From contig PNKH01000032.1 of the NCBI GenBank assembly GCA_013822345.1, forward strand, positions 643-64,642: a stretch of DNA of 64,000 nt, written 5' to 3'. Shown one piece after another: positions 5,406 to 50,238 of this stretch. The position numbers were made by a program, and so were the translations under genes. The notes under the pieces are model-generated. The model was given only the letters and a program-made list of their open reading frames with translations. It had not been told where the DNA came from and made no database searches. This stretch comes from Isosphaera sp. (GTDB taxonomy: Bacteria; Planctomycetota; Planctomycetia; Gemmatales; Gemmataceae). Positions within the stretch are counted from its first letter, which is position 1. Each line of letters begins with the position of its first letter.

Positions 5406-5903
5406 ATGGACCTCTTCGCTCACAGCAACACGGGCTCGCCCTCCGGCGGACTGTTCCCGCCGTGGGAGGCACACCCGGCCACGGTCCACTTCCCGATCGC
5501 GTTCCTCGTCGGGGCGGTCGCGCTCGATCTGTACGCCTGGTGGCGGGGGCGGGCGGACCTCGCGCGGGTGGCGACCGGGCTCATGGCGGCGGGTGTGCTC
5601 ACCGGGGTCGTGGCGGCCGCGACCGGGGCGGTGGCGTTCTTCACCGTGCCCGCGCACACCCGCGAGGCCCACCGCCTCATGTACTGGCACCTCGGGCTGA
5701 TGGCCGGCGTTCTGACTCTGTTCACCGGGGTGGTTGTCGCCCGTCGGCGCGACGAGACGCCGGCTGTGTGGGTGCGCGTCGCCGGGCTGTTCGGGGTTGC
5801 GGTGCTGCTGGTCGGGGCCTACCTCGGCGGCAGCCTGGTCTACCGCGGCGGAGCCGGGGTCGATCCCGCGATCCTCGCCCCGGAGGTGCGGCACGGGCAT
5901 TAA
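5406..5903 (+). CDS. DUF2231-like membrane protein
   Basis: HPATVHFPIA motif, conserved His in MYWHLG, four hydrophobic segments, YLGGSLVY. Confidence 0.75.
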   Translation: MDLFAHSNTGSPSGGLFPPWEAHPATVHFPIAFLVGAVALDLYAWWRGRADLARVATGLMAAGVLTGVVAAATGAVAFFTVPAHTREAHRLMYWHLGLMAGVLTLFTGVVVARRRDETPAVWVRVAGLFGVAVLLVGAYLGGSLVYRGGAGVDPAILAPEVRHGH

Positions 5904-6083
5904 CACGCCGGCGGGGTCGGTTCATCCGATCACGGCCGGGTTGTACCGTCTCTCGGGCCGGGCGCTTCGCGGGGTGCGGGCCGAACCCCCAATCGGGCGG
6001 CACTGCCCGCCGTGGCGTCGGGTAGAATTCGGTGGTGCGGGGAACGGCTGGCGGGCGCGTGACCCTAACTGAAGAGGTGCCTC

Positions 6084-11033: not shown

Positions 11034-11240
11034 CCCGTTCCCCGCGGTCGCGTCCCACTGCCCACGGGGCGTGACGTGTTCCGTCGTGACATTGTCGGCC
11101 GTTCCGGCCTGACCCCCGTCGCGCACGTTCCCCACGATCCACCTCCGACGCGGCCCGCCGCTGGACGGGGTGGGACAGATTCCGGTTTCAACCCAGCGGG
11201 TCCGGGTGCGTTCGTCCGGCCCGCACAACAGGAGACTCAC

Positions 11241-11834
11241 ATGGTCCGCAATCTCCTCGTTCTCGGCAGCCTCGGGGTCGCCCTCGTGGCGTTTACCCTC
11301 GTCGGGTGCAACAAGACGCAGCCCACGTCCGCCCCACCTCCCGGCGGCGAGCCGAAGCCCGGCGACCCGAAGAAGGACGGCCACGGCGACCACAAGCCGG
11401 GTGACGGCAAGAAGGACGACCACGGGGATCACAAGGCCGGTGACGGCAAGAAGGACGACCACGGCCACGCCCACAAGCCCGGCGCGCACGGCGGGACCAT
11501 CGTCTCGCTGGGCAAGGACAGCTACCACGCCGAGGCCGTGTTCGAGAAGGACGGGGCGATCCGACTGTACATGCTCGGCAAGGACGAGTCCAAGCCCCAG
11601 GAGATCGAGGTCCAGGAACTCGTCGCCCACGTGACCCCGGCCGGTTCGACGGACGCGGTGCAAGTGAAACTCACCGCCGATCCGCCGAAGGGGACCACCG
11701 CTGGGAAGACGACGGTGTTCGTGGGCAAGCTGCCGCACGAACTCCACGGGAAGAAGGTTCAGGTGACCATCAACAACATCCAGATCGGCACGGAGCGCTT
11801 CCGGATCACGTTCGCCAACGAGAAGGCGCACTAG
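11241..11834 (+). CDS. GxHGG-type His-rich lipoprotein
   Basis: AGGAGA RBS; LVG-C lipobox; His/Asp/Lys repeats; GAHGG...YHAEAVFE. Confidence 0.8.
   Translation: MVRNLLVLGSLGVALVAFTLVGCNKTQPTSAPPPGGEPKPGDPKKDGHGDHKPGDGKKDDHGDHKAGDGKKDDHGHAHKPGAHGGTIVSLGKDSYHAEAVFEKDGAIRLYMLGKDESKPQEIEVQELVAHVTPAGSTDAVQVKLTADPPKGTTAGKTTVFVGKLPHELHGKKVQVTINNIQIGTERFRITFANEKAH
11355..11483 (+). repeat. About 3 copies of a 39-bp in-frame repeat encoding KKD(G/D)HGDHK(P/A)GDG
   Basis: Units start at 11370, 11409 and 11448 (aagaaggacg...). Confidence 0.85.
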
Positions 11835-11950
11835 AGACCGCGATGCCGGCCGGGGTCGGCGGCGGTGAGAGGACCATTCCGTTTCAAGTGTCTACCATGC
11901 CGGCGGTCCCGGGTGCGATTGCCCGCGACGCGCCAGCACAGGAGGATTCC

Positions 11951-12793
11951 ATGCTGCGTAAGGCTGTTCTGTTCGGCGGCCTCGCTATCGCCGCCGCGAC
12001 CGTCGTGATCGTCGGGTGCGACAACAACCAGCCGCCGAGTGAGAAGGCTGCCGAGCCCAAAGCGCCGCCCGTGAAGCCGGACGAGGAGCACGGGCACAAG
12101 CCCGGTTCGCACGGCGGGATCATCGTCTCGCTCGGCAAGGACAGCTACCACGCCGAGGCGGTGTTTGAGAAAGGCCGGAAGGTCCGCCTCTACATGCTCG
12201 GCAAGGAGGAGACCCGGATCCAGGAGGTAGACGCCCAGGACTTGGCCGCGTTCGTCACGCCCGAGGGATCGACCGAGGCGGTCCCGGTCACGTTCAAGCC
12301 CGAGCCGCAGGCGGGCGACGCGAAGGGCAAGACCTCCCTGTTCGTGGCCACCCTGCCCGAGGAAATGTCCGGCAAAAAGGTGCAGGTGACCGTCAACAAC
12401 ATCCAGGTCGGGATCGAGCGGTTCCGGATCGCGTTCTCGAACGAGAAGGCGGCGCACGACGGCGACGGAATGCCCTCGAAGGTGGCCGACGAAGACGAGA
12501 AGAAGCTCTACCTGACGCCCGGCGGTATGTACACCGATGCCGACATCAAGGCCAATGGCGGCGTGGTCGCGTCGGTGAAGTTCAAGGGGCTGAAGGCCGA
12601 ACACGACCTGAAGCCCAAGACCGGCGTGAAGATCTGCCCGGTCACCCTCACTAAGGCCAGCCCGAAGTTTTCCTGGGTGATCGGCGGCAAGACCTACGAG
12701 TTCTGCTGCCCGCCGTGCGTGGACGAGTTCGTCGCGCTCGCCAAGGAGAATCCGGACAAGGTTCTCGACCCGTCGGCTTACATCAAGAAGTGA
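11951..12793 (+). CDS. GxHGG-type lipoprotein paralog with C-terminal YHS/TRASH-like domain
   Basis: IVG-C lipobox; GSHGGIIVSLGKDSYHAEAVFE nearly identical to the preceding gene; ICPVT...EFCCPPC. Confidence 0.8.
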   Translation: MLRKAVLFGGLAIAAATVVIVGCDNNQPPSEKAAEPKAPPVKPDEEHGHKPGSHGGIIVSLGKDSYHAEAVFEKGRKVRLYMLGKEETRIQEVDAQDLAAFVTPEGSTEAVPVTFKPEPQAGDAKGKTSLFVATLPEEMSGKKVQVTVNNIQVGIERFRIAFSNEKAAHDGDGMPSKVADEDEKKLYLTPGGMYTDADIKANGGVVASVKFKGLKAEHDLKPKTGVKICPVTLTKASPKFSWVIGGKTYEFCCPPCVDEFVALAKENPDKVLDPSAYIKK

Positions 12794-20286: not shown

Positions 20287-20622
20287 ATGATGCGATTCGT
20301 GTACGCCCTGGCGGCCGCTGCGGCGCTGGGCACCGCCTGGACCGCGACCGCCGACGACAAGAAGGAAACCAAGCTGACCGGCACACTCGTGTGCGGGAAG
20401 TGCAGCCTCAAGGCGACGCCGAAGTGCAGCAACGTCCTCCAGGTGAAGGAGGGCGACAAGCTCGTCAACTACTTCCTCGACGACAAGGGGAACGGCGAGC
20501 CGTACCACGAGGGCGTCTGCGGCGGTGACAAGGTCGAGAATGTGGCCGTCACCGGCACCGTCACCGAGAAGGACGGCAAGAAGACGGTCAAGCCGACCAA
20601 GGTCGAGTTGCCCAAGAAGTGA
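20287..20622 (+). CDS. Small exported Cys-motif protein (DUF6370-like)
   Basis: Signal peptide; LVCGKCSLK..KC.NVLQV...H..VCG...VTGTVTEKDGKK. Confidence 0.7.
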   Translation: MMRFVYALAAAAALGTAWTATADDKKETKLTGTLVCGKCSLKATPKCSNVLQVKEGDKLVNYFLDDKGNGEPYHEGVCGGDKVENVAVTGTVTEKDGKKTVKPTKVELPKK

Positions 20623-20754: not shown

Positions 20755-22140
20755 ATGCAGCCCCAAATCACGATCTCGTCGGCCCAGTTTACGGGCTCAC
20801 AAACACTTGAGACGGGCTGGCAATACCATCGGGCAGGGCAGCACGCCCAGGCCGAACAGGTCTGCCGCCAGTTGCTGCAGGCCAACCCCGAGGACGCGCA
20901 GGCCTTGCGACTCCTCGGCCTGACCTGCCAGGCACAGAACAAGCTCGCGGACGCCGAGGCTCATTACCGCCGGGCGTTGTCCCTCCAGCCCGACGACGCC
21001 GAGATTCACAACGACCTGGGGGTGGCCCTGGGCAGGCGAGGCGACCTCGTCCAGGCCGTGCCCTCGTTCGAGCAAGCGGTCCGGCTCATGCCGAACCACG
21101 TGATCGCCCACAACAACCTGGCACAAGTCTTCCTCCAGCTCGGCCAGCCGAACAGAGCAGCCTTCCACTCATCTGAGGTCGTGCGTCTCCAGCCCGGCAG
21201 TGCCGACGCCCACAACCAGATGGGGGTGATCCTCGCCCAGCAAGGTCAATTCGACCCGGCCATGAACTCGTTCGAGCAGGCCCTCCGGATCAAGCCGGAC
21301 CACCCGGTCGCCGGCATGAATCTGGACAAGGTCCGATTTCTACAGCAGACCCAATTGCAGAACGCGACGAACCAGTTACTGGGAGCCATCTATTACAACC
21401 AGTTCCTGTCGATGGATCGCTACGCGGACCCGAAGAGGCTGTTGAAGTACGGCTACAAGGTCTACTCGCAGGGGTACGGGGACGGAATGATCCAGGAGAT
21501 TTTCTCCAGGGTCGGCATAACGAACAAGAGGTTCATCGAGTTCGGGGTGGAGACGCAAGAAAACAACACGTTGTTTTTGCTGCTGTCCGGCTGGTCAGGA
21601 CTCTGGCTCGACGCCCGGGCGTTGGACCTCGGGCCTGTAGCAAACCACATCAAGAACGGGACGCTCAAGTTCGCGCAGGTTGTCGTCACCGCCGAGAACA
21701 TCAACGGTGCGATCCGCGAGCACTACGGGGTGGGGGAAATCGACCTGTTGAGCATCGACATCAGCGGTAACGATTATTGGGTGTGGAAGGCACTCGACGC
21801 CGTTCGCCCCCGCGTGGTGGTGGTCGAGTACAACTCGTCCTTCTCCCCCCTCGGCAGCATGACCGTCAAGTACATGGCCGACGACCAGGTCAAGCTGGCG
21901 GCGCGCCTCAACGACTTCGGCGCCAGTCTGAAGGCGTACGAGAAACTGGGGGTGGAGAAAGGCTACCGGCTGGTCGGGTGCGATCTGCGAGGGGTGGATG
22001 CGTTCTTCGTCCGCGAGGACCTGGTCGGCGATCGCTTCTGCGAACCATTCACCTCGGAAAACCATTACGAGCCGCCACGATTCTTTCCACCACGATTACC
22101 TCACAACATGTTCGCACAAGGGGAATTCAAAGAAATCTAA
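20755..22140 (+). CDS. TPR-repeat protein fused to FkbM-like methyltransferase-fold domain
   Basis: About 5-6 TPRs (e.g. AEIHNDLGVAL, ADAHNQMGVIL), then YSQ..DG.IQEIF, FIEFG, SIDISGNDYW, VVVEYN, GASL, DAFFVR; visibly more A/T-ending codons than its neighbours. Confidence 0.75.
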   Translation: MQPQITISSAQFTGSQTLETGWQYHRAGQHAQAEQVCRQLLQANPEDAQALRLLGLTCQAQNKLADAEAHYRRALSLQPDDAEIHNDLGVALGRRGDLVQAVPSFEQAVRLMPNHVIAHNNLAQVFLQLGQPNRAAFHSSEVVRLQPGSADAHNQMGVILAQQGQFDPAMNSFEQALRIKPDHPVAGMNLDKVRFLQQTQLQNATNQLLGAIYYNQFLSMDRYADPKRLLKYGYKVYSQGYGDGMIQEIFSRVGITNKRFIEFGVETQENNTLFLLLSGWSGLWLDARALDLGPVANHIKNGTLKFAQVVVTAENINGAIREHYGVGEIDLLSIDISGNDYWVWKALDAVRPRVVVVEYNSSFSPLGSMTVKYMADDQVKLAARLNDFGASLKAYEKLGVEKGYRLVGCDLRGVDAFFVREDLVGDRFCEPFTSENHYEPPRFFPPRLPHNMFAQGEFKEI

Positions 22141-22200
22141 AGTGTGAAGAAAGCACGGCGGCGGTAGCCGCAACGCGACAGGGGGCCGGCGCACAGGCCG

Positions 22201-22314
22201 CCGCCCGGGTTCCTGGCGACGCACTACGGCATCGGCACGCCGCTCGCGGTGCTGGTCGCCCACGTGGCGTTCGGCACCATCCTCGGAGCCTTCTGTGACA
22301 TCGACCTTCGCTGA
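22201..22314 (+). repeat. Orphan copy of the last 114 bp of the membrane-protein gene (26707-26820)
   Basis: Encodes PPGFLATHYGIGTPLAVLVAHVAFGTILGAFCDIDLR*; 22247-22314 is identical to 26753-26820 (68 bp). Confidence 0.92.
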
Positions 22315-22357
22315 TCGTCAGCATGCCTCGACATTCTTCACGTGCCGAGGGCTGCGG

Positions 22358-22428
22358 CCGGCAGCGTCACCGAGAAGGACGGCAAGAAGACGGTCAAGCC
22401 GACCAAAGTCGAGCTACCCAAGAAATGA
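22358..22428 (+). repeat. Orphan copy of the last 71 bp of the DUF6370-like gene (20552-20622)
   Basis: 66 of 71 nt match, including the stop codon; differences are mostly synonymous. Confidence 0.92.
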
Positions 22429-22676
22429 TCGAGCGGAGTTACCCGAACGGGGCCGGACCGAATGCCGCCGCGGCGCTATTCGCGGACGGGCACCCAGCCG
22501 CCCGTCCGGGGCAGCTACCGCGGGGCGATGACACTCCACCACGGCGGAAGGCGGTAGTGTTCCGCCGCGAAGTATGGCCAGCCGAGCGGCGGTGGCTCCC
22601 CCGGGCCCCTCGAACCTGAATCCGGGCCGTGGGCCACTCGACTCGGATGTTGTTTCCCCCTCTCCGGAGATTGACG

Positions 22677-23114
22677 ATGCGACACCTCGTTCCCCCAAGC
22701 CTGTGCCTCGTGGCCGTGGTCGTCGTCGCGGGGGCCCTCACGACGGGTTCCACCACACCAAGCCCGGCCGCCCAGCCGCAGAACGATCCCGTGAAGACGC
22801 TCCAGAAGGAGCGTCTGACGGCCCTCCAGAAGATTCACGACGAGTCGCTCCGGGCCTACAAGGGCGGTCAACTGCCTCTCGACCAGGTGCTGTCCGCCCA
22901 CCTCGCGCTGCTCAACGGCAAACTCGACCTGTGCGAGACGAACGCCGAGCGGGTTAAGATTCACGAGGAGATGGTCCGGGTGGCCGAGGAGTTCTTGAAG
23001 AGCGTCCGGAAGCTGGCGGAAGCCAAGCAGGTCAGCAGCCTCGACGTGCTCAAGGCCGAGGTCCAACTTCTGGACGCCCGGATCGGGCTGGAAAAGGCCA
23101 AGGCCGCCAAGTGA
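22677..23114 (+). CDS. Small secreted all-helical protein resembling one TolC/OEP helical repeat
   Basis: GGAGA RBS; signal peptide; VSSLDVLKAEVQLLDARIGLEK. Confidence 0.65.
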   Translation: MRHLVPPSLCLVAVVVVAGALTTGSTTPSPAAQPQNDPVKTLQKERLTALQKIHDESLRAYKGGQLPLDQVLSAHLALLNGKLDLCETNAERVKIHEEMVRVAEEFLKSVRKLAEAKQVSSLDVLKAEVQLLDARIGLEKAKAAK

Positions 23115-23338: not shown

Positions 23339-25192
23339 ATGACAGGAGCGACGCCGAAAATCCAGGACTATGCCGTCATCGGTGACGGGCGGGCGGGCGC
23401 GCTGGTGTCCCGGGACGGCTCCATCGACTGGCTGTGCTGGCCCCGGTTCGATAGCCCGTCGCTGTTCGGGGCGCTCTTGGACCGGCGGGTCGGAGGTGCC
23501 TGGAGCGTCACGCCCGCCCTGCCGGCCGAAGTCGAACGCCGCTACATCGACGAAACGAACGTGCTACAGACCCGGTTCCGCACGGCCACGGGGGCGATGA
23601 CCCTCACCGACTTCATGGTGGCATTCTCCGAGGAGGACAAGCGGCGGCGGCTCATGCCGGAGCACGAGTTGGTGAGGCGGGTGGAGTGCGAGCACGGGGA
23701 AGTGGAAATCCTCGCCCACTTCGACCCGCGCCCCGACTACGGCCGGGCCGAGTTCCGCATCCGCGACGCCGGGGCGCTCGGCCTCCGTATTGACATGGGG
23801 TCGTGGCTGGTCGCGCTCCACGGCGGCGTGAAGTTCGCCCCGGCCGCGGAAGGCGGGGCGTCGGCGCGCGTCACGCTGAGAGCCGGGGAGTCTACCACCT
23901 TCTCACTCACGTACTCGGCCGAGGGGCCGGCCGTGGTCCCGCACCTCGGCGAGGGCGCCGCGGAGAAGCTCGCGCTCACCGTCGGGTGGTGGCAGCGCTG
24001 GGCGGCCCGTGCCCGTTACGACGGCCCGTACCGCGACGCCGTCGTCCGCAGCGCGCTCGTACTCAAGCTGCTGTCCTATGCCCCGTCGGGGGCCATCGTC
24101 GCGGCACCGACCACGTCCCTGCCAGAGCGGCTCGGCGGCGACCTGAACTGGGACTACCGCTTCTGCTGGCTGCGCGACGCCGCGTTCACGGCCCGCGCCC
24201 TCTTCGGCCTCGGCTACGAGGAGGAAGCCGAAGCGTTTTGCAGTTGGATGCTGCACGCGACGCGGCTCACCCGCCCGGAGCTGCGGGTCCTCTACGACGT
24301 GTTCGGCGAAACCCTCCCGAAGGAGACGGACCTGCCACACCTCGAAGGGTACGCCGGGTCGCGCCCGGTCCGCGTCGGGAACGCGACGCGGGACCAGCTC
24401 CAGCTCGACGTGTACGGCGAGGTCGTCGAGGCGTGTACATACTTCGCCGGGCGCGGCGGCGCGCTCGACCGCGACACGCAGCAGATGCTCCGCCACTTCG
24501 GCGAGTACGTCTGCCGCCACTGGCAGGAGCCGGACAACGGCATCTGGGAGCCGCGCGGGGTGCGGCAGCACTTCACCCACTCGCGGCTCCTGTGCTGGGT
24601 GGCCCTGGACCGCCTCCTCGCACTGCACCGGGCGGGTCGCATCCGCGGCATCCCGGCAGACCGGTTCGCGGCAAATCGGGAGCGCATCCGGCGCGACATC
24701 GAGGAGCGGGGCTGGAACCCGACGCTGGAAAGTTACACCGCGGTCCTGGGCGGGGAGACCCTCGACACGACCGTCCTCCAGATGGCGTTCCTGGGGTTTG
24801 CCGAGGCGTCTTCGGAGCGGATGCGGCAGACCTGCCGGAGGCTCCGGGAGCGCCTGGGCGCGGGGCCGGGGCTGATCTACCGCTACGAGCAGAGTTTCGA
24901 GGGCCGCGAGGGCGCGTTCGCCATGTGCTGTTTCTGGGTCGCCGATTTCCTCGCCCGGGGCGGCGGCAGCCTGGGCGAGGCGCACGACTCCTTCGCCCGG
25001 ACGCTCGCGTACGCCAACGACCTGGGGCTGTTCGCCGAGGAGATCGACCCGCGGACCGGGGACGCGCTGGGCAACTTCCCGCAGGCGTTCACCCACGTCG
25101 GCCTCATCAACGCCGCCCTCTCGCTGGCGGAACGGGAGGAGCGGGACCGCCGCCAGGAAGGAGCCGCTGCCCGCGGCCGTCCCTTTCGGTAA
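23339..25192 (+). CDS. Glycoside hydrolase family 15 (trehalase/glucoamylase-like)
   Basis: IQDYAVIGD, SIDWLCWPRFDS, AAPTTSLPE..GG..NWDYRFCWLRDA, QLDVYGE, GNFPQAFTHVGLI. Confidence 0.9.
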   Translation: MTGATPKIQDYAVIGDGRAGALVSRDGSIDWLCWPRFDSPSLFGALLDRRVGGAWSVTPALPAEVERRYIDETNVLQTRFRTATGAMTLTDFMVAFSEEDKRRRLMPEHELVRRVECEHGEVEILAHFDPRPDYGRAEFRIRDAGALGLRIDMGSWLVALHGGVKFAPAAEGGASARVTLRAGESTTFSLTYSAEGPAVVPHLGEGAAEKLALTVGWWQRWAARARYDGPYRDAVVRSALVLKLLSYAPSGAIVAAPTTSLPERLGGDLNWDYRFCWLRDAAFTARALFGLGYEEEAEAFCSWMLHATRLTRPELRVLYDVFGETLPKETDLPHLEGYAGSRPVRVGNATRDQLQLDVYGEVVEACTYFAGRGGALDRDTQQMLRHFGEYVCRHWQEPDNGIWEPRGVRQHFTHSRLLCWVALDRLLALHRAGRIRGIPADRFAANRERIRRDIEERGWNPTLESYTAVLGGETLDTTVLQMAFLGFAEASSERMRQTCRRLRERLGAGPGLIYRYEQSFEGREGAFAMCCFWVADFLARGGGSLGEAHDSFARTLAYANDLGLFAEEIDPRTGDALGNFPQAFTHVGLINAALSLAEREERDRRQEGAAARGRPFR

Positions 25193-26308
25193 CATCACAA
25201 CAGACGTACAAGTTTGGCGGGCTCAGAACAAAGGGAGGACGCTGTGAAGTGGAGATTATTTCTGTTGCTCGGGACCGCTTTGCTCCCGACTGCCGCGATA
25301 GGGGCGGAGGAAGGGAAGCAGCCCGTGAAGTGTGTGGGACACGAGGCGATCGTCACCGCAGTCGCCCTCTCCCCCGATGGCAAGGTGGCCGTTTCCAACA
25401 GCGACGATCGCACGCTGCGCTTTTGGAACACGGCCGACGGCAAAGAGATCCGGAAGGTGGAAGCCGGTTTCTGGATCGGCGGCGTCCGCTTCTCGCCCGA
25501 TGGCAAGTACTTGGCCACCACGGCGACGGATTCGGTGCGCTTCTGGGATCCCGCGACTGGCAAAGAAGTCGGAAAAGACATCAAGGAACACTTGACCGTA
25601 AAGGAGCCCGGGTACGGTCTGGCGTTCTCGGCGGACGGCTCCAAACTGGTCGTTGCCTGCGGTACTGGGGCGGAGGTCTGGGACGCGAGGCTCGGCCGGA
25701 AGCTGCGGGATTTCCGGCCGAAGGACAAAGGCTTCGGCAATGCCCGGCAGGTGGCAATTTCGCCGGACGGCTCGCTCGTGGCCGCCGCCTTGCTCGGCGA
25801 GGGCGGCAGAGATACGGAGGAGGGGTTTCCCGCGGTGCGCGTTTGGGAGGCGAAAAGCGGGGAGGAAATGTTCAAAACGTGGGCTGGAACAAGCGCAGAC
25901 GCCGTCGCGTTCTCGCCCAGCGGGAAGCAACTGGCGATTGGCGGGATGCTTCCTGACGGGGCAGACCACAACGGGGTGCTCGAAATCTGGGATCTCGACC
26001 CGAACGGGAGCAGGCTCCTTTCGCGGGTACGGGCCGACAAGCACGGCCTGTTCTGCCTGGCCTTCAGCCCGGACGGCAAGACCATCGCCACGGGCGGGAC
26101 CGAGCCGGCGGTCAAGCTGTGGAACGCAACCACCGGCGAGTTGATCGGGAAGCTGGAAGGGCACTCCGACCAAGTTCACGCCCTCGCCTTCTCCGCAGAC
26201 GGGAGGAGCCTCGCTTCGGCGGGAAGGGATAAGCTCGTCTTGATCTGGCCGATGGGAGGTGGCCGGAGGTAAACCGCCTCACGCCAAGAAGCAGCCGCAG
26301 CCCGCGGC
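25151..26308 (+). repeat. 27-bp imperfect direct repeat (25151-25177 and 26282-26308) bracketing the WD40 gene
   Basis: cgccaggaaggagccgctgcccgcggc vs cgccaagaagcagccgcagcccgcggc (24/27). Confidence 0.8.
25244..26272 (+). CDS. Secreted WD40-repeat protein
   Basis: GGAGG RBS and GTG start; signal peptide; repeated GH...V..VA.SPDG...LRFWN/VKLWN units. Confidence 0.88.
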   Translation: MKWRLFLLLGTALLPTAAIGAEEGKQPVKCVGHEAIVTAVALSPDGKVAVSNSDDRTLRFWNTADGKEIRKVEAGFWIGGVRFSPDGKYLATTATDSVRFWDPATGKEVGKDIKEHLTVKEPGYGLAFSADGSKLVVACGTGAEVWDARLGRKLRDFRPKDKGFGNARQVAISPDGSLVAAALLGEGGRDTEEGFPAVRVWEAKSGEEMFKTWAGTSADAVAFSPSGKQLAIGGMLPDGADHNGVLEIWDLDPNGSRLLSRVRADKHGLFCLAFSPDGKTIATGGTEPAVKLWNATTGELIGKLEGHSDQVHALAFSADGRSLASAGRDKLVLIWPMGGGRR

Positions 26309-26337
26309 GACCGTGAACAGGCTCCGGAGGCGCGTCG

Positions 26338-26820
26338 ATGAACTTCGGTAGCTGGCTGCTGTGGGGCTTCGTGGGCACGGTCGTGCTGAGCGTCATCGTC
26401 GCCGCGAGCCAGGGGTTGGGCCTGACGCGGATGAACATGCCGTACCTGCTCGGCACCGTCTTCACGCCGGACCGGGACCGGGCGAAGCTGATCGGCGTCG
26501 CGTGCCACTTCGCCAGCGGCTGGCTTTTCGCCCTCGTCTACTTCGCCGCCTTCCACGCCCTGGGCACGGCGACGTGGTGGCTCGGGGCACTGGCGGGGCT
26601 GGTCCACGGCTCCTTCGTCCTGACGGTCGGCATGCCCCTGCTGCCCGCCCTGCACCCCCGCATGGCCAACGAGCAGTACGGGCCGACCGTGGTCCGGCAG
26701 TTGGAGCCGCCGGGGTTCCTGGGGTTGCATTACGGCATCGGTACGCCGGTTTCGGTGCTGGTCGCCCACGTGGCGTTCGGCACCATCCTCGGAGCCTTCT
26801 GTGACATCGACCTTCGCTGA
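26338..26820 (+). CDS. Conserved membrane protein
   Basis: Four hydrophobic segments; GLTRMNMPYLLGT, HPRMA, PPGFLG. Confidence 0.75.
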   Translation: MNFGSWLLWGFVGTVVLSVIVAASQGLGLTRMNMPYLLGTVFTPDRDRAKLIGVACHFASGWLFALVYFAAFHALGTATWWLGALAGLVHGSFVLTVGMPLLPALHPRMANEQYGPTVVRQLEPPGFLGLHYGIGTPVSVLVAHVAFGTILGAFCDIDLR

Positions 26821-26862
26821 CAGTCGGCACGCCCGACCTCATGCACGGCCCGAGGGCTGGGG

Positions 26863-26895
26863 CCGGCACCGGCCCGAGGAGGACGGCAGGAAGAC
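26863..26895 (+). repeat. Degenerate further copy of the DUF6370-like 3' segment
   Basis: ccggcaccggcccgaggaggacggcaggaagac vs ccggcaccgtcaccgagaaggacggcaagaagac; preceded by the same spacer as the 22358 copy. Confidence 0.7.
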
Positions 26896-26956
26896 CGCCG
26901 GAGGAGAGTGCGCCGGCATCGATTCGGCACCACGAATTCGTGAAGAGGGGATTGAG

Positions 26957-27427
26957 ATGGCCGGGTGTTGCGGGTCGAACGAGCGGTCGCGGGCGAGGAA
27001 GTTGCTCGGGCCGGTGGTCTGGCTGCTGATCGGGGTCTTCGTGGTCGGACTCGCAATCTGGGAGCGGCAGCCGCACCACCACGCTGACGTCGGGCCGCAC
27101 GGCGGCCCGCTGGCCGACTGGGACGACGGGGCGATCCACTTGGAGATCGACATCGGCCGGGACGAGGAGACGGCGACCATCTACGCCCTCGACCGGTGGG
27201 CCAAGAGGCCGAAGCCGATCGACGCCAAGCCGCTCACCCTCACCCTGAAGACCGACCCGGAGAGGGTGGTGATTTTCGACCCGGACCCAGACGCGGGCGA
27301 CCCGCCCGGCCGGTCCAGCCGGTTCACCGCGCGTCACCACGTCTTCTGGCCGCAGGCCAAGGTGCGCGGGACCGTATCCGGGACGGCCGAGGGCAAGCCG
27401 TACTCCGGCGACGTTAGCGAAAAGTAG
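26957..27427 (+). CDS. GxHGG-type membrane-anchored protein
   Basis: N-terminal GCCG and TM; HHHADVGPHGG...HLEI...DAGDPPGRSSRF. Confidence 0.7.
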   Translation: MAGCCGSNERSRARKLLGPVVWLLIGVFVVGLAIWERQPHHHADVGPHGGPLADWDDGAIHLEIDIGRDEETATIYALDRWAKRPKPIDAKPLTLTLKTDPERVVIFDPDPDAGDPPGRSSRFTARHHVFWPQAKVRGTVSGTAEGKPYSGDVSEK

Positions 27428-27530
27428 TCCGCCGCGCAACTCGCGGGCGGGGGGTCGTTCCACTGCCGGGCGGTGCGGGCGGCGGGTCGTTCGACTCCCC
27501 CGCCACCCGCCCCACCAGAGGAGTTCAGCC

Positions 27531-27872
27531 ATGCGAGCGTTCGTTACCGCGTGCCTGGCGGCGGTGGCCGTCGCTTTCTCCGCCGGCGTCGCGTCAGCCC
27601 AGCACGGTGGGGGCCACGGCGGCGGTCACGTCGTCGTTCCGGCCCACGCCGGGGGTCACGCCCCGGTCTACCACCCGCCGGCGCACTACGCCCACGGCGG
27701 GTACGCCGTCCCCTCCGGCGGGTTCGGCATCGGGGTGTACGCGGGGCCGACCTACGGGCCGCCGGTCGGCGCCTACCCCGGCCCTGCGGTGGTTCCCGCC
27801 CCGTACTACCCCGGGTACGGCTCCGGCTACAGCTACGGCCACCACCGACCTCACCGCCTGTTCCACCATTGA
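27531..27872 (+). CDS. Small secreted Gly/His/Tyr/Pro-rich protein
   Basis: GAGGAG RBS; signal peptide ending ASA; QHGGGHGGGH...HHRPHRLFHH. Confidence 0.65.
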   Translation: MRAFVTACLAAVAVAFSAGVASAQHGGGHGGGHVVVPAHAGGHAPVYHPPAHYAHGGYAVPSGGFGIGVYAGPTYGPPVGAYPGPAVVPAPYYPGYGSGYSYGHHRPHRLFHH

Positions 27873-27975
27873 TCCCGACTCGGGATCGCGCGGCTGCCAG
27901 GGCGGGTCCGGGGCCGATGGGGCTGCGGCCCGCCGGGCCGCCTGGTGGACGCGCTCTTCTGGAGACCGACGAACG

Positions 27976-30948: not shown

Positions 30949-31266
30949 TCAGCCAGTCCGGTATCGGGCGACCAGCCCGTCCAGGTCCGGGGCCGACCGC
31001 AGGTGGTCGAGGGCCAGCCGGACCAGCTCCTCGATGGTCAGCTTGGGGGCGCGGGGGTGCCGCCGGTGGTACGTCCGGGCCTGGTCCTGGAGCCAGGCGA
31101 TCTGGTCGGCCCGGACACGGGTCGTCAGCTTGCACGTCCCGGTGCCCGGCTCGGCAGCCGCGGCCGGGGGACGGGCTTCGATCAGGGCGGCCGCCCGGTC
31201 GCCGGCGTCGGCCCGTCGGGGGGCGGCGAGCGGGACGGCCGCCCGGAGCTGTTCGCGGCTACTCAT
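30949..31266 (-). CDS. Small ParA partner, possible ParG/RHH-type DNA-binding protein
   Basis: Overlaps the parA stop; KLTTRVRADQIAWL...LTIEELVRLALDHL fits a strand-helix-helix pattern. Confidence 0.55.
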   Translation of the reverse strand: MSSREQLRAAVPLAAPRRADAGDRAAALIEARPPAAAAEPGTGTCKLTTRVRADQIAWLQDQARTYHRRHPRAPKLTIEELVRLALDHLRSAPDLDGLVARYRTG

Positions 31267-32035
31267 CCCCCAGCACCTCCGCGGTCAGGGCCCCCATCTC
31301 GCGGGCCGCCCGGGGAGCGGTCCCGGCCGGGTGCCGGGCGGCGTAGTCGTACACCGTCTCCCCGTTCGCCCGGGCCTTCGGGAACGCCTCCGAGCGGTGG
31401 ACGCGGGTCTCGTACACGGCCGCCCCGAGCGGGGCCAGGTGGTCGTCCAGCCAGTCGTTGAGCACCTTCCGGCGGGCGTCCACCTGCGTCACGACCACCC
31501 GGCAGAAGCCGGCCGGGTCCAGTTCCGGGCGGTGGGTGAGGTAGGTCTGCACGGTGCGGAACGTCCGCCCCAAGCTGCGGACCGACTCGGCGTCGGCGTC
31601 GCACGGCAGGATCGCCCGGTCGGCCGCCATGACGGCGTTGAGCGTCACCAGGTCGAGCGTCGGCGGGGTGTCGATAACCACGGCGTCGAACCGGCCGCGG
31701 AGGTCACCGAGTGCCAGCCGGAGGGCCGTCGCACGGTTCGGGAGGGCGGCGAACGACTCCGGCTCCAGCCCCGGGTCGCCGGGGGCGACGAACAGGTTCG
31801 GGGTCGGGGCGGGGACGATCACGTCGGCCAGCACCCGGGCGGCGATGGCGTCGGCCAGCGGGATGAGCCCGTCCGGTGGTTGCACGCCGGCCCCCGGGGC
31901 GGCCGGGGCCTGGGGGTCGAGGTCGAGGAGCAGCGTGCGGCGGCCGGCGCGGGCCAGGCCGGCGGCGAGGTGGATCGCGGTGGTCGTCTTGGCGACCCCG
32001 CCCTTCTGTTGGGTGACGGCGATGGTGACGGTCAT
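31259..32035 (-). CDS. parA: ParA-family partition ATPase
   Basis: QQKGGVAKTTT, LLDLDPQ, VIDTPP; no N-terminal HTH (type Ib-like). Confidence 0.88.
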   Translation of the reverse strand: MTVTIAVTQQKGGVAKTTTAIHLAAGLARAGRRTLLLDLDPQAPAAPGAGVQPPDGLIPLADAIAARVLADVIVPAPTPNLFVAPGDPGLEPESFAALPNRATALRLALGDLRGRFDAVVIDTPPTLDLVTLNAVMAADRAILPCDADAESVRSLGRTFRTVQTYLTHRPELDPAGFCRVVVTQVDARRKVLNDWLDDHLAPLGAAVYETRVHRSEAFPKARANGETVYDYAARHPAGTAPRAAREMGALTAEVLGDE

Positions 32036-32188
32036 GGTTCTCCGTGAGGGTGGTTGCCGGCCGGGGTCCGCCCGGCCGTCACCCGGCAGCCTGCCACGGG
32101 CCGGGCCGTCGTGGCAAGTCCCTGCCGGGGGGTTACGGTTTCGCGGCCGGGATACGGCCGGTTCGCGGCCGGCATCCGCCCGGCGGCA

Positions 32189-32204
32189 GGCCGGTTGAGT
32201 AGGC
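32189..32204. promoter_or_regulatory. 16-bp motif ggccggttgagtaggc, identical copy at 42390-42405
   Basis: Exact match in two intergenic regions (upstream of parA and upstream of mobC). Confidence 0.5.
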
Positions 32205-32471
32205 TTGCGAGTGGCGCTACGCTGGAGCGGCCCGGTGAAACGGAGACTGGCTCTGCGGGGACGCAACCACGTCGAGGGATAGCCGGGCCGACGGTGCGTC
32301 GATGGACGCCGTTCGAGCGCCCCGGCGGGAGCTTCATCTCTCCCGCCGGGGCCGTTTTCGCTCAGGTTCTCGGGCTTCGGCCGGGTGTGCCCCGAACCAA
32401 ACACCCGCAACCCCTGGTGTGAGGAATGTGGCGGACCACCGCAACTTGCAACGGGGCGGGGCGCTTGACAG

Positions 32472-33644
32472 TCAGCGGCCGTCGTCGGGCGGGCGCGCGG
32501 CCAGGGCGTTGCGGGTCCGCTCGACTTCCTGCCGCAGTTCCTCGGCCGGCGGCAGGGCGGTCTGGTAGCGGGACGCGAACACCTGGGCGTTGATCCCGGC
32601 CGTCGCGTACCGCACCACGGTGTCGCTCTTCTCGGAGCACAGGATGATGCCGATCGGGTCGGCCTCCCCCGGCTCGGTCAGGTGTTCCTTGGCGTAATTC
32701 AGGTACAGGTTGATCTGGCCGGCGTCGGCGTGGGAGAACTTCCCCACCTTCAGGTCGATCACCACCAGGCACCGCAGCCGCCGGTGGAACAGCACCAGGT
32801 CCATCTTGTACCAGACGGTGTCGATCAGGATGCGCTTCTGCCGGGCGACGAACGTGAACCCGTTGCCGAGTTCCAGCAGGAACTGCTCCAGGTGCTTGAC
32901 GAGGGCGTCCTCCAGGTCGGTCTCGGCGTACTCGTCCGTCAGGTCCAGGAACTCCAGGAGGTACGGGTCGCGGACCATGTCGGTCACGGCGACGGCGTCC
33001 TCGGGCTTCGGCTCCTGACCGCGGCGGAGCATCTTCGCCCTGTCCTTCGAGTGGGCCAGCCGCTCGTAAAACTGGGTGGCGATCTGGCGGTCGAGTTGGC
33101 GGACCGACCACCCGCCGCGGACGGCTTCCTCCTCGTAGAACGCCCGCGGCGTGTCGTCCGGGACGCTCATCAGCCGGACGTAGTGGGACCACGGGAGCGG
33201 GAAGGCGTCGGCGAGGGCGGCCACCGCGGGCGGGGCCGCCGGCCCGGTTACACCCGATCCGCCGCCGGAAACCGGGAGCCGGACGCGGGCGCTCAATTTG
33301 GCCGACGGTGTCGGCCAAATCTCCCACCCCTGGTAGAACGCCCGCATCTTCCGCAGCCCGCGCGCGGAGAACCCGCGGCCGAACGCCTTCGACAGGTCGG
33401 CACCCAACCGGGCCAGGAGTTCCTCGCCGTACCCGGCCCGGGCGTGGCCGCCCTGCTCGTGCTCGACGATCCGCCGGCCGACCTCCCAGTACGTCGCCGT
33501 CAGCACGCCGTTGACCGCCCGGGCGGCCGCCCGGCGGGCCTGGTCGAGCAACTCGGCGATGCCGGCCCGGAAGGCGTCGTACCCGGCGTCGGCCGGGGCG
33601 AGGGAGCGGTTCGGGGCGGCTGGTTTCTTCCGCGGTCGGGTCAC
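32472..33644 (-). CDS. YhcG/DUF1016-family PD-(D/E)XK nuclease-domain protein
   Basis: YWEVGRRIVE, RGFSARGL, LPWSHY, GGWSVRQL, RDPYLLEFL, ELGNGFTFVARQ, DLKVGKF, GQINLY. Confidence 0.9.
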   Translation of the reverse strand: MTRPRKKPAAPNRSLAPADAGYDAFRAGIAELLDQARRAAARAVNGVLTATYWEVGRRIVEHEQGGHARAGYGEELLARLGADLSKAFGRGFSARGLRKMRAFYQGWEIWPTPSAKLSARVRLPVSGGGSGVTGPAAPPAVAALADAFPLPWSHYVRLMSVPDDTPRAFYEEEAVRGGWSVRQLDRQIATQFYERLAHSKDRAKMLRRGQEPKPEDAVAVTDMVRDPYLLEFLDLTDEYAETDLEDALVKHLEQFLLELGNGFTFVARQKRILIDTVWYKMDLVLFHRRLRCLVVIDLKVGKFSHADAGQINLYLNYAKEHLTEPGEADPIGIILCSEKSDTVVRYATAGINAQVFASRYQTALPPAEELRQEVERTRNALAARPPDDGR

Positions 33645-38229: not shown

Positions 38230-38339
38230 CTTATTCCCCTCGGTCCCGGCCATTATCCGCGTTCGCACACCCGTTTTCGACCCTTCTCTGCCGGCAGCGG
38301 TTGGTGCGGGCATTTCGTGAGCAGGGGGCTTGGCGCTGT

Positions 38340-38362
38340 TTGGATTACAATATAGAATCCAA
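38340..38362. promoter_or_regulatory. AT-rich 7-9-7 inverted repeat in a divergent promoter
   Basis: ttggatt-acaatatag-aatccaa. Confidence 0.55.
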
Positions 38363-38422
38363 TTAGCACCCGCCACCCCAACTCGCTCACAAGTCGTTCG
38401 CCTGCCTCCCACGGAGAATCCG

Positions 38423-39304
38423 ATGACCGCCCCGCCGCAACCCACACCGGCTGCCACCCCGCCGCCGGCCGGGCCGATCCGTGACATCCCACTCGACCAG
38501 ATCCACACCGCCAAGCAGCCCCGCGAGGGGTTCGACGAGGCCCGGATGGCCGAGCTGGTGGCCAGCTTCAAAGCCGTCGGCCAGCTCGCGCCGGTCCGCG
38601 TCCGGCCCCGCCCGGCCGGCGGGTTCGACCTGGTCTTTGGCGAGCGCCGCTATCGCGCCGCCAAGCAAATCGGCTGGACATCAATCCGGGCCGAGGTGGC
38701 GGCCGGCGACCCGTCCCCGGCCGACGTGCTCCACGAGCAACTGGCCGAGAACTTGTTCCGCGACGCCTTCAAGCCGGTCGAGCGGGCCCGCGGGTTCCGC
38801 GACCTCATGCAACTGAAGGGGTGGACCGCCAAGCAACTGGCGGCGGCACTCGCCCTGTCCGAGGCGACCGTCAGCCAGGCTCTGCGGCTCCTCGACCTGC
38901 ACCCGGACCTACAAGCCGCGATCGACGCCGGCCGGGTGACGGCCGCCGCCGGGTACGAGTTGGCGAAGCGCCCGGTTGCCGAGCAGCAGGAGGCGGCCCG
39001 GCAGGCCCGCCAGGGGCGTCCGGCCCGCGCGGGGGCCAAGGCGAAGGCCGCCAAGCGGCCGCCCCTGACCCTCTCCCTGCCCGGCAACCACTTCGACTTC
39101 GAGGTGGTCGGCAACCGGGTGACGGTCAAGGGCAAGGAGATCGACTCCGTCCGCCTGCTGAACGACGTGCTGCTCGAACTCGTCGCCGCCGTCCGCGCCC
39201 ACCTCCGCTCGACCGAGCTTCCGAACGCGAACACGAAGTCGAAATCTCAACCGCTCGCCCCTCACCCCAAGCCGTCCGACCCGGACGGCCGTGCGTCCGC
39301 GTGA
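38423..39304 (+). CDS. parB: ParB/RepB/Spo0J-family protein
   Basis: IPLDQI...QPRE.FD, GQLAPVRV, LVFGERRYRAA, QLAENL.R, HTH (WTAKQLAAALALSEATVSQAL). Confidence 0.85.
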   Translation: MTAPPQPTPAATPPPAGPIRDIPLDQIHTAKQPREGFDEARMAELVASFKAVGQLAPVRVRPRPAGGFDLVFGERRYRAAKQIGWTSIRAEVAAGDPSPADVLHEQLAENLFRDAFKPVERARGFRDLMQLKGWTAKQLAAALALSEATVSQALRLLDLHPDLQAAIDAGRVTAAAGYELAKRPVAEQQEAARQARQGRPARAGAKAKAAKRPPLTLSLPGNHFDFEVVGNRVTVKGKEIDSVRLLNDVLLELVAAVRAHLRSTELPNANTKSKSQPLAPHPKPSDPDGRASA

Positions 39305-42763: not shown

Positions 42764-42787
42764 CCTGTCATGTTGTGGGTGTTCGTC

Positions 42788-48164: not shown

Positions 48165-48605
48165 ATGGAGATCATTCACCAACGCCCGGCGGGGTGGCCG
48201 ACCGTGGTCGGAGGCGGTGGCAACGCCCTCCCGTGCGGCACGCGGGCGGTGCCGGCACGGCCGCCTGCCGCCCCCTTGAGTGCCGCCGTCCGACCCAGGC
48301 CGAACAAAGCGAGCGCGGCGGCCCCGCCACAAACCGGTGACTGTTTCGTGGTCGTCAACTGCCGCGGGCAATGCTGGGACGGGGCGACGTGGGTTGACCG
48401 CTGGGACAAGGCGCTCCAGTTCCGCCGCCCGTCTTCTGCTTACGAGCTGTGCGACAGCGCCGCCCGCGAGGCGGAGCGGATGACCGGCGTGGCCGGCATG
48501 GTGAGCTACATCCCGCCCGGCACGCCGCCGGTGTCCCTGGCCCCCTTCCCCGACCTATCTCAAGTCGACTTGCGGGACTTCGCCCTCAAGCCCGAGGTGT
48601 GCTGA
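48165..48605 (+). CDS. Hypothetical protein convergent on the integrase
   Basis: The C-terminal half (CFVVVNCRGQCWDG...) reads as coding; start uncertain. Confidence 0.45.
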   Translation: MEIIHQRPAGWPTVVGGGGNALPCGTRAVPARPPAAPLSAAVRPRPNKASAAAPPQTGDCFVVVNCRGQCWDGATWVDRWDKALQFRRPSSAYELCDSAAREAERMTGVAGMVSYIPPGTPPVSLAPFPDLSQVDLRDFALKPEVC

Positions 48606-50173: not shown

Positions 50174-50238
50174 GGGAGCTTCCGTGCTTTTGCGGCGAAC
50201 GACCATGACGGCACCTCGACCCGTGGGAAGTTTATGGT

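What the first reader, a model, noticed from the sequence alone, without database searches (positions are those of the whole stretch)
25151..26341. WD40 gene inserted as a bare cassette into the GH15 3' end, leaving a fossil of the original stop/start coupling
Seen: a 27-bp repeat (24/27; two of the three differences synonymous) brackets only RBS+WD40 ORF, and the second copy starts 9 bp after the WD40 stop. Read in the GH15 frame, the second copy continues RQEAAAARGDREQAPEARR-TGA. That TGA (26339-26341) overlaps the ATG (26338) of the membrane gene, a classic ATGA coupling. The live GH15 now ends RQEGAAARGRPFR. No transposase or terminal inverted repeats are present. Inference: precise single-gene insertion with replacement of the target tail, the same signature as at the other two genes here.
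Basis: partly seen in the sequence, partly recalled or inferred. Interest (0 to 1): 0.75.

Follow-up and report, generated by a model that had tools for sequence, protein, structure and literature searches.

The report
WD40 gene wedged between coupled genes
A foreign WD40-repeat gene was added between two genes that normally overlap by four bases (ATGA). The original end of the upstream gene survives as a readable fossil, which makes this a clean but fairly ordinary case of gene gain by recombination inside a mobile copper-resistance island.

Summary
R1 (25151-25177) and R2 (26282-26308) match 24/27. Ten Markov-2 simulated copies of the window contained no pair that good at 100-3000 bp. R2 read in the GH15 frame runs to a TGA that overlaps the membrane gene's ATG.

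In 19 of 19 same-strand GH15/membrane-gene pairs from many phyla, and in the closest Gemmataceae relatives, the two genes overlap (ATGA or GTGA in 18 of the 19, a 1-nt or TTGA overlap in L067). None has the WD40 gene. Removing the insert and one repeat restores a 623-aa GH15, the same length as in relative L081.

The insert is 1104 bp: a 15-bp new tail, a 51-bp leader with its own ribosome-binding site, a 342-aa secreted WD40 gene, and 9 bp. Its GC3 is 0.80 against 0.91-0.94 in the flanks. It has no terminal inverted repeats, attC site or recombinase.

The locus is copper-resistance cargo of a conjugative element. Two more gene-tail fossils lie within 7 kb. An Acidobacteriota locus shows the same signature, and one relative has a MITE in the same GH15 tail.

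The mechanism is inferred, not shown. I favour recombination between diverged island copies plus one illegitimate joint. A true 27-bp target duplication is the main rival. Interest is moderate.

The parts
23339..25192 (+). Live GH15 gene (617 aa; TREH_N + Glyco_hydro_15). It now ends ...RQEGAAARGRPFR*.
   Evidence: Pfam PF00723 E=7.5e-62 and PF19291 E=3e-19. 84.6% aa identity to the GH15 of L088.
25151..25177 (+). R1, the left copy of the 27-bp direct repeat, inside the live GH15 tail.
   Evidence: Its first 15 nt are identical to the homologous stretch of relative L081.
25178..25192 (+). New 4-codon tail plus stop (CGTCCCTTTCGGTAA = RPFR*). These are the first bases of the insert.
   Evidence: Sequence. 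It has no counterpart in any relative's tail.
25193..25243 (+). AT-richer leader of the WD40 gene, with a Shine-Dalgarno sequence GGAGG at 25234-25238, 5 nt before the GTG start.
   Evidence: Sequence. No promoter-like site was found. It has no similarity to the leader of the WD40 orthologue L093.
25244..26272 (+). WD40 beta-propeller gene, 342 aa, with an N-terminal signal-peptide-like segment. It is compositionally foreign.
   Evidence: PF00400 E=5e-39. GC3 is 0.80 against 0.91 (GH15) and 0.94 (membrane gene). The closest homologues are 71-77% identical and sit in unrelated contexts.
26273..26281 (+). 9-bp right end of the insert (ACCGCCTCA).
   Evidence: Sequence.
26282..26308 (+). R2, the right copy of the repeat and the start of the fossil GH15 tail.
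   Evidence: The alignment to L081 resumes exactly here.
26309..26341 (+). Rest of the fossil tail (DREQAPEARR*). It contains the membrane gene's Shine-Dalgarno sequence GGAGG (26326-26330) and the fossil stop TGA, which overlaps the ATG.
   Evidence: The reconstructed GH15 is 623 aa, equal to the L081 GH15. Relatives end ...EVR[RPVS]*, and the same bases encode the ribosome-binding site.
26338..26820 (+). YagU/DUF1440-like membrane gene (160 aa), normally translationally coupled to GH15.
   Evidence: 5559 homologues, the best 120 at 72-87% identity, many named YagU by JGI. It lies directly downstream of GH15 in 22 loci.

Best explanation
The ancestral unit was GH15 followed by a YagU-like membrane gene. 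The two overlapped as ATGA, with the membrane gene's ribosome-binding site encoded in the last codons of GH15. In the lineage of this window, 1104 bp of foreign DNA came to lie 27 bp into the variable C-terminal linker of GH15. That DNA is a promoterless, secreted WD40 gene with its own ribosome-binding site. GH15 now stops after four new codons. WD40 is presumably translated from its own Shine-Dalgarno sequence on the operon transcript. The old GH15 tail survives as non-coding DNA, probably because it still carries the membrane gene's ribosome-binding site and start. This polarity, WD40 as the newcomer, is shown; I put it at about 0.97. How it got there is inferred. I think the most likely route is recombination between diverged copies of this conjugative copper-resistance island: one homologous or homeologous exchange in or near the GH15 tail, plus one illegitimate joint just after the WD40 stop. 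That could be a single crossover of a recircularised incoming fragment, a one-sided homology-facilitated event, or a deletion in a transient two-copy state. Under this reading R1 and R2 are two alleles of the same tail segment, not a transposase-made duplication. No dedicated mobility enzyme is involved.
For: Polarity: 19 of 19 overlapping pairs in other phyla, 4 empty sites in the closest relatives, no WD40 anywhere else, and a 15-bp overlap of the two alignment blocks on L081. The reconstruction gives 623 aa, matching L081. The insert has GC 63.9% and GC3 0.80, against 0.91-0.94 in the flanks. WD40 orthologues sit in other contexts in roughly 58% GC DNA. Recombinational route: the locus is cargo of an ICE-like element carrying ParA, ParB, a TrwC relaxase, a coupling protein and a large serine recombinase. 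Two more tail fossils lie within 7 kb, of 71 bp and 192 bp, so the repeat length is not fixed. The fossil of the membrane-gene tail has 9 differences in its first 47 bp and none in the next 68 bp. It is nearer the L088 allele (102/115), while the live tail is nearer L081 (100/115). In L017 (Acidobacteriota) a FAD-oxidase tail is duplicated around a 1.5-kb insert. It has a 90-bp perfect core and diverged ends, the live tail is a homologue of the fossil tail, and the fossil keeps the ATGA overlap with GH15. That pattern fits two alleles, not decay in place. Strain variants differ by 17 changes clustered in 116 bp of GH15, which shows ongoing homeologous exchange here. In E. coli conjugation experiments, most integrants of DNA sharing one segment with the chromosome were single crossovers of recircularised molecules. 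These duplicated 109-950 bp of that segment (PMC3240628).
Against: No donor with a GH15-like tail next to WD40 was found; the nearest WD40 homologues follow YfhO, an esterase or an AlkD-like gene. Similarity between R1 and R2 is only 27 bp with a longest perfect run of 9 bp, which is short for RecA-type exchange. R1 matches the outgroup L081 15/15 while R2 carries derived G>A and G>C changes. The neighbouring X-tail fossil carries 4 derived changes, 3 of them G>A, against 1 in the live copy. That fits equally well a duplication made in place followed by AT-biased decay of the non-coding copy. GH15 shows no drop in GC or in identity to L088 just upstream of R1, so any donor-derived GH15 tract must be very short or from a close relative. 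Across the three repeats, 9 of 17 differences fall at codon position 3, which is only suggestive.
Confidence: 0.5

Rival explanations
1. True target duplication. A foreign fragment was captured at a staggered break, or by replication template switching, in the GH15 tail. 27 bp of the target were copied on both sides, and the non-coding copy R2 has since decayed.
For: R1 equals L081 over the alignable 15 nt while R2 has derived G>A and G>C changes. The X-tail fossil shows the same AT-biased decay, at about 5.6%. The insert has minimal flanks of 66 bp and 9 bp and no internal homology to GH15. A small GC hairpin (GCCGC N5 GCGGC) ends exactly at the left junction.
Against: I know of no bacterial process that makes 27-bp or 71-bp staggered duplications. 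The fold of the hairpin is not better than shuffles (z = -0.4). The L017 case and the membrane-gene-tail fossil cannot be decay in place, because each has a perfect core with diverged ends.
Confidence: 0.3
2. A dedicated cassette system. Single promoterless genes excise as circles by recombination between their flanking tail repeats and re-insert at other gene tails. They would carry fossil tails of former hosts as homology 'addresses', possibly helped by a recombinase supplied in trans.
For: There are three tail duplications within 7 kb. The TPR-methyltransferase gene sits in the X tail yet carries a fossil of the membrane-gene tail, as if it had lived there before. L017 shows the same signature. 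A large serine recombinase gene lies at 48560-50206.
Against: Contigs of 8 runs showed no circle junction or precise-excision joint within this organism's population; the one contig skipping 25146-26324 (run X17) comes from a relative at lower identity. There is no conserved sequence at the cassette ends. Repeat lengths and sequences differ in every case. Serine recombinases use 2-bp crossovers and make no such repeats. WD40 and TPR-methyltransferase orthologues elsewhere show no flanking repeats.
Confidence: 0.08
3. Tandem duplication followed by replacement. A segment starting in the GH15 tail was duplicated in tandem, and most of the first copy was then replaced by WD40.
For: This model fits the neighbouring structure well. 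The joint 'membrane-gene tail + spacer + X-tail' occurs twice, at 22200-22391 and 26706-26895. Tandem duplication is common under selection for dosage.
Against: For WD40 it needs two precise events where one is enough. No second copy of any part of the unit other than the 27 bp remains.
Confidence: 0.07
4. WD40 is ancestral and was lost elsewhere, or the repeat is chance or a mis-assembly.
For: None beyond formal possibility.
Against: All 19 same-strand pairs in other phyla and 4 close relatives lack WD40 and have overlapping genes. The composition is foreign. Null simulations gave 0 such repeats. Independent assemblies agree.
Confidence: 0.02

Closest known systems
Integrase-mediated insertion into the 3' end of a protein gene with an element-borne replacement tail (e14 / phage 21 in E. 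coli icd)
   Same: The inserted DNA supplies a new 3' end for the target gene. The original 3' end is displaced to the far side as a duplicated pseudo-tail (163 bp icd' for e14; PMC6379469). The two copies are imperfect, with mainly silent differences.
   Different: Here the insert is 1.1 kb with one cargo gene and no integrase or excisionase. The shared segment is only 27 bp, and the new tail (RPFR*) is not a homologue of the displaced one. The L017 case is closer to the icd picture, but it also lacks an integrase.
Campbell-type single crossover of a recircularised fragment, and homology-facilitated illegitimate recombination
   Same: Foreign DNA ends up flanked by a direct duplication of whatever segment it shared with the chromosome. 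The duplication has variable length (109-950 bp in E. coli conjugation) and needs no dedicated enzyme (PMC3240628). The conjugative-element context fits.
   Different: The shared segment here is far shorter (27 bp, 89% identical). The donor is unknown. Classic HFIR usually pairs insertion with deletion rather than duplication.
MITE / IS insertion (as seen in relative L099 in the same GH15 tail)
   Same: Same target region: an independent insertion about 24 bp upstream of the WD40 site. The fossil tail there also still reads through to the ATGA.
   Different: The L099 element is 132 bp with perfect 20-bp terminal inverted repeats and a 7-bp target duplication (GGAGCGC). The WD40 insert has neither, and its repeat is 27 bp.
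Integron gene cassette
   Same: A single promoterless ORF inserted into an expressed array.
   Different: There is no attC: only 9 bp separate the stop from R2. There is no attI and no IntI-type integrase in the window.

Membership tests
Translationally coupled GH15 / YagU-like gene pair | The membrane gene lies immediately downstream on the same strand, with stop and start overlapping. | tested here: met
   19 of 19 same-strand pairs overlap: ATGA x14, GTGA x4, and one 1-nt or TTGA overlap. Relatives L081-89 and a JGI contig have a 4-bp overlap. In the window the overlap survives only in the fossil frame.
Transposon / IS / MITE insertion | Terminal inverted repeats at the ends of the insert. 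| tested here: not met
   No inverted repeat pairs the ends 25178.. and ..26281. For contrast, L099 has 20-bp perfect inverted repeats.
Transposon / IS / MITE insertion | Short target duplication of fixed length (2-14 bp) and a transposase, either in the element or as a family elsewhere. | tested here: not met
   The repeat is 27 bp and imperfect. The only ORF in the insert is WD40. No transposase family appeared among the window ORFs scanned.
Integron cassette | An attC recombination site downstream of the ORF, and an IntI integrase with attI nearby. | tested here: not met
   Only 9 bp lie between the stop and R2, and there is no significant fold. No tyrosine-integrase domain was found in the window.
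Site-specific integrative element in a gene 3' end (icd-type) | Direct repeats (attL/attR) derived from the target tail, with the live gene completed by element DNA. | tested here: met
   R1 and R2 match 24/27, and the live tail RPFR* comes from the insert.
Site-specific integrative element in a gene 3' end (icd-type) | An integrase encoded within or beside the element. | tested here: not met
   None lies within 25178-26281. The only recombinase in the window is a large serine recombinase 22 kb away.
Homology-assisted additive integration (single crossover / HFIR) | The duplicated segment is the stretch shared by donor and recipient, and the two copies are alleles. | tested here: inconclusive
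   Outgroup polarisation fits decay in place as well as it fits allelic origin. The block-structured identity that supports alleles is seen in L017 and in the membrane-gene-tail fossil, not in the 27 bp itself.
Homology-assisted additive integration (single crossover / HFIR) | A donor molecule carrying both the cargo and the shared segment. | not testable with these tools
   No sequence closer than 77% aa to WD40 exists outside this organism in the collections searched.
Integrative conjugative element (context of the locus) | Relaxase, coupling protein, partition genes and a recombinase next to cargo. | tested here: met
   TrwC E=5e-76, TrwB/TraG E=5e-56, ParA, ParB and a Resolvase+Recombinase protein. 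The ends of the element and a mating-pore apparatus were not identified.

The most novel reading that the evidence does not exclude
Gene tails that carry the next gene's ribosome-binding site may act as landing pads for a recombinase-free cassette traffic among metal-resistance islands. Single promoterless genes would leave as circles by recombination between their flanking tail repeats and re-enter wherever a fossil tail they carry finds a match, so each cassette would record its former addresses. The TPR-methyltransferase gene, sitting in the X tail while carrying a membrane-gene tail, would be an example.
Probability: 0.1. Interest if true: 0.7.

Novelty: new member of a known kind. Interest (0 to 1): 0.38.

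Why it matters
This is an unusually legible record of how an operon gains a gene. The pre-insertion state can be rebuilt base by base, and empty sites exist in relatives. The displaced tail shows what selection had to keep, namely the downstream gene's ribosome-binding site and start.

Four such tail fossils turned up: three here and one in an Acidobacteriota locus. That suggests a testable rule. Additions to translationally coupled pairs may survive mainly when the junction is duplicated. If so, 'fossil tails that read into the next start codon' would be a simple genome-wide marker for recent gene gain in operons and in conjugative-element cargo.

The finding does not reveal a new enzyme or a new class of mobile element.

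Tried and rejected
- Chance similarity: rejected by the null counts.
- Mis-assembly or chimaera: rejected, because independent contigs from other samples span both junctions.
- Empty-site or circular forms in the population: contigs of 8 runs showed none. One soil contig skipping 25146-26324 is simply a relative without WD40. Contigs cannot exclude rare forms.
- A conserved cassette boundary: similarity to the WD40 orthologue L093 begins at the start codon, and similarity to the TPR-methyltransferase orthologues begins 45 bp inside the ORF. Nothing is shared in the flanks.
- A donor-derived tract in GH15 upstream of R1: no break in GC or in identity to L088 was seen.
- Hairpins, terminators and promoters at the junctions: nothing exceeded shuffles.
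- Plasmid collection search: it returned only distant GH15 genes.
- A third repeat around the 156-aa gene 26957-27427 or around the OEP fragment: none was found.
- RNA evidence for WD40 expression: only one run of uncertain type, with short low-depth contigs, so it is not usable.
- Codon-position bias of the repeat differences: 9 of 17 fall at position 3, which is not significant.
Full report
**The observation**

The window is 70.9% GC. GH15 runs 23339-25192 on the + strand. A WD40 gene runs 25244-26272 and a 160-aa membrane gene runs 26338-26820.

The 27-bp repeat is real. R1 is 25151-25177 and R2 is 26282-26308, matching 24/27 at a spacing of 1131 bp. R1 starts on a GH15 codon boundary. The live protein ends RQEGAAARGRPFR*. 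R2 in the same frame reads RQEAAAARGDREQAPEARR*, and its TGA (26339-26341) overlaps the membrane gene's ATG at 26338. Two of the three differences are synonymous. R2 starts 9 bp after the WD40 stop.

Chance does not explain this. None of 400 random 27-mers exceeded 21/27 in the next 1.5 kb. The whole window has 7 clusters of >=24/27 direct pairs at 100-3000 bp, of which 4 belong to one paralogue pair. Ten Markov-2 simulations had none.

**Comparative test of insertion**

A genome scan with the GH15 protein fetched 80 loci. In 22 of them the membrane gene lies next to GH15, 19 times on the same strand. In all 19 the GH15 stop overlaps the membrane gene's start: ATGA in 14, GTGA in 4, and a 1-nt or TTGA overlap in one. 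These loci come from Verrucomicrobiota, Myxococcota, Acidobacteriota, Gemmatimonadota, Chloroflexota and others. None contains a WD40 relative.

The membrane protein's nearest relatives are 83-87% identical and are Gemmataceae or Planctomycetia. Their contigs show GH15 of 603-624 aa overlapping the membrane gene by 4 bp, with no WD40.

blastn against L081 splits the window into two blocks, 23348-25165 and 26282-26820. The two blocks overlap by 15 bp on L081, which is what an empty site looks like. L081's tail (...RDLRQEGATTGSGGEAALTEVRR*) lines up with the rebuilt tail (...RDRRQEGAAARGDREQAPEARR*). Removing the insert plus one repeat gives 623 aa, exactly the length of L081's GH15. The shared ...E(V/A)R.* ending encodes the membrane gene's GGAGG ribosome-binding site (26326-26330).

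**What was inserted**

The insert is 25178-26281, 1104 bp. It consists of 15 bp giving RPFR*, a 51-bp AT-richer leader with GGAGG 5 nt before GTG 25244, the 342-aa ORF, and 9 bp. The protein has WD40 repeats (PF00400, E=5e-39). Its N-terminus (KWRLFLLLGTALLPTAAIGAEE) looks like a secretion signal, which is my reading of the sequence.

GC is 63.9% and GC3 is 0.80, against 0.91 for GH15 and 0.94 for the membrane gene.

The closest homologues outside this organism are 71-77% identical. They follow a YfhO gene, an esterase gene or an AlkD-like gene, and the one with DNA available is about 58% GC. Nucleotide similarity begins at the start codon, so no common cassette flank exists.

The insert has no terminal inverted repeats, no attC-like fold, no second ORF, and no promoter- or terminator-like site above background.

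**Population data**

Logan contigs from other samples (L090-L092) carry GH15-WD40-membrane gene. Sixteen drinking-water and biofilter runs hold the sequence in two strains about 99.2% alike. R1, R2 and the fossil are identical in both strains.

The strains differ by 17 changes clustered in 24938-25053. This is a recombination tract inside GH15.

No empty-site or circular form appeared in the contigs, though contigs would miss rare forms.

**Context**

The window is an ICE-like element.
- Cargo: YHS, M50 protease, DUF2231, multicopper oxidase, HMA, OEP, CusB- and CusA-type efflux genes, and a DUF6370 gene that I call X (20287-20622).
- Backbone: ParA (31259-32410, - strand), ParB, a TrwC relaxase, a coupling protein, and a large serine recombinase (48560-50206, - strand). 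Housekeeping genes follow.

The finding therefore lies in cargo that is expected to meet diverged copies of itself.

**More tail fossils**

(a) The last 71 bp of X (20552-20622, including the stop) recur at 22358-22428, matching 66/71. They lie on the far side of a low-GC TPR + FkbM-methyltransferase gene (20755-22140).

(b) Between that gene and the X fossil lies a copy of the membrane gene's last 115 bp plus about 75 bp downstream: 22200-22391 against 26706-26895, 86% identical.
- Its 9 coding differences all fall in the first 47 bp, followed by 68 identical bases.
- It is closer to the L088 allele (102/115), whereas the live tail is closer to L081 (100/115).

(c) The stretch after the live membrane gene (26863-26895) itself resembles the start of the X tail.

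(d) In L017 (Acidobacteriota) a FAD-oxidase gene's tail (4097-4266) recurs at 5793-5962, around a 1535-bp insert.
- The copies share a 90-bp perfect core with diverged ends.
- The live tail (...MVLRKFAKKNRKPNDD*) is a homologue of the fossil (...MAARRFAKWNRKREQR*).
- The fossil's TGA overlaps the GH15 ATG.

(e) In relative L099 a 132-bp MITE sits in the same GH15 tail, about 24 bp upstream of the WD40 site. It has 20-bp perfect inverted repeats and a 7-bp target duplication. Its fossil tail also reads on to the ATGA.

The linker is therefore a permissive place, hit at least twice independently.

**Mechanism**

The repeats are 27, 71, about 170 and 192 bp long, which rules out a fixed-stagger transposase. 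Cases (b) and (d) cannot be duplicates that decayed in place, because a perfect core flanked by 20-30% divergence is not what uniform decay produces. They look like two alleles joined by recombination.

That is also the commonest experimental outcome when DNA sharing one segment with the chromosome enters by conjugation. It recircularises and integrates by a single crossover, duplicating 109-950 bp of the shared segment (PMC3240628).

For the 27 bp itself the data do not decide.
- R1 equals L081 over 15/15 nt, while R2 carries derived G>A and G>C changes.
- The X fossil carries 4 derived changes, 3 of them G>A, against 1 in the live copy.
- These observations fit AT-biased decay of a non-coding copy as well as they fit an allelic origin.

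I therefore commit, at about 0.5, to recombination between diverged island copies plus one illegitimate joint. A true target duplication stands at about 0.3. A tandem-duplication route and a dedicated cassette system are each below 0.1. The polarity of the event is close to certain.

**Comparison with known systems**

The picture most resembles integration into a gene's 3' end with a replacement tail, as in e14 or phage 21 in icd, where a 163-bp pseudo-tail is displaced (PMC6379469). Here, however, there is no integrase and the new tail is unrelated to the displaced one. It is not a transposon, MITE or integron cassette: those defining features were tested and not met. It behaves like homology-assisted additive integration, but membership cannot be shown without the donor.

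**Verdict**

The event is a well-documented instance of operon gene gain in conjugative-element cargo. It is a new member of a known kind and of moderate interest. Its main value is the reconstructable before-and-after state, together with the suggestion that fossil tails reading into the next start codon mark such events more widely.

Noticed in passing
window 20552-20622 and 22358-22428: A 71-bp direct repeat (66/71), both copies ending in TGA. It is the tail of the DUF6370 gene X, duplicated around a low-GC TPR + FkbM-methyltransferase gene (20755-22140). The fossil copy carries 4 derived changes (3 G>A) relative to L085, against 1 in the live copy.
   Followed up: partly
window 22200-22391 and 26706-26895: A 192-bp repeat (86%) made of the last 115 bp of the membrane gene plus about 75 bp downstream. 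The fossil sits 4.5 kb upstream of the live gene, right after the TPR-methyltransferase gene. It has a 68-bp perfect block after 9 clustered differences. The fossil is L088-like and the live copy is L081-like. Logan contigs break at 26782 and 22276 inside this repeat.
   Followed up: partly
window 26863-26895: A third, partial X-tail-like stretch (about 29/34) directly after the membrane gene's spacer. It is in frame with the ORF that contains the 156-aa gene 26957-27427. It makes the joint 'membrane-gene tail + spacer + X tail' occur twice, which suggests an older tandem duplication or an unequal crossover.
   Followed up: partly
window 29409-50642: The backbone of an integrative conjugative element: ParA (31259-32410, -), a YhcG/DUF1016 nuclease (32472-33644, -), ParB (38330-39304), a TrwC relaxase (42770-45298), a TrwB/TraG coupling protein (44746-47277) and a large serine recombinase (48560-50206, -). 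It abuts a 156-aa DUF3362 fragment (50172-50642), a possible integration target. Housekeeping genes follow.
   Followed up: partly
window 1-20176: Copper and metal resistance cargo: a YHS-domain protein, M50 protease, DUF2231, multicopper oxidase, HMA protein, OEP, and CusB- and CusA-type efflux genes. A tandem paralogue pair lies at 11076-11834 and 11843-12793 (76% over 365 bp) with no Pfam match.
   Followed up: no
window 22629-23114: A 161-aa ORF that matches only the last repeat of the outer-membrane efflux protein family (PF02321, residues 104-159). It is probably a truncated gene left by rearrangement between the X-tail fossil and GH15.
   Followed up: no
window 24938-25053: The two strains of this organism in public runs differ by 17 substitutions within 116 bp of GH15 and by only 5 over the other 2.5 kb. 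This is a short imported recombination tract about 100 bp upstream of R1.
   Followed up: partly
window 44650-44676 and 45342-45368: Another 24/27 direct pair, 692 bp apart, near the end of the relaxase ORF, where the relaxase and coupling-protein ORFs appear to overlap by about 550 bp. Its meaning is unknown.
   Followed up: no
L099 987-1118: A 132-bp MITE with perfect 20-bp terminal inverted repeats (GCAGGGCAAACGCATGAAAT) and a 7-bp target duplication (GGAGCGC). It is inserted in the GH15 tail of a relative, and the fossil tail still reads ERDDRDRGPQAAAGGSGHEHTHPETRT* into the ATGA.
   Followed up: yes
L017 4097-5962: An Acidobacteriota locus in which the tail of a 1047-aa FAD-oxidase/Fe-S protein is duplicated around a 1535-bp insert. 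The copies share a 90-bp perfect core. The insert holds a 31-aa Cys-rich, metallothionein-like ORF (5552-5647). The fossil tail keeps the ATGA overlap with GH15.
   Followed up: partly
window 27119 joined to 20552 (contigs of runs X2 and X7): Contigs from a more abundant organism join sequence like the 156-aa gene (up to 27119) to sequence like the X tail (from 20552), with 9 extra bases between. This suggests a related protein family that shares the X-type tail.
   Followed up: no
window 26821-27877 versus L088 5277-7853: Between the membrane gene and the HAMP-SpoIIE gene, relative L088 has a 152-aa gene and a PMT_2 glycosyltransferase. The window instead has the unrelated 156-aa gene 26957-27427. 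This is a replacement with no repeat at its edges.
   Followed up: partly
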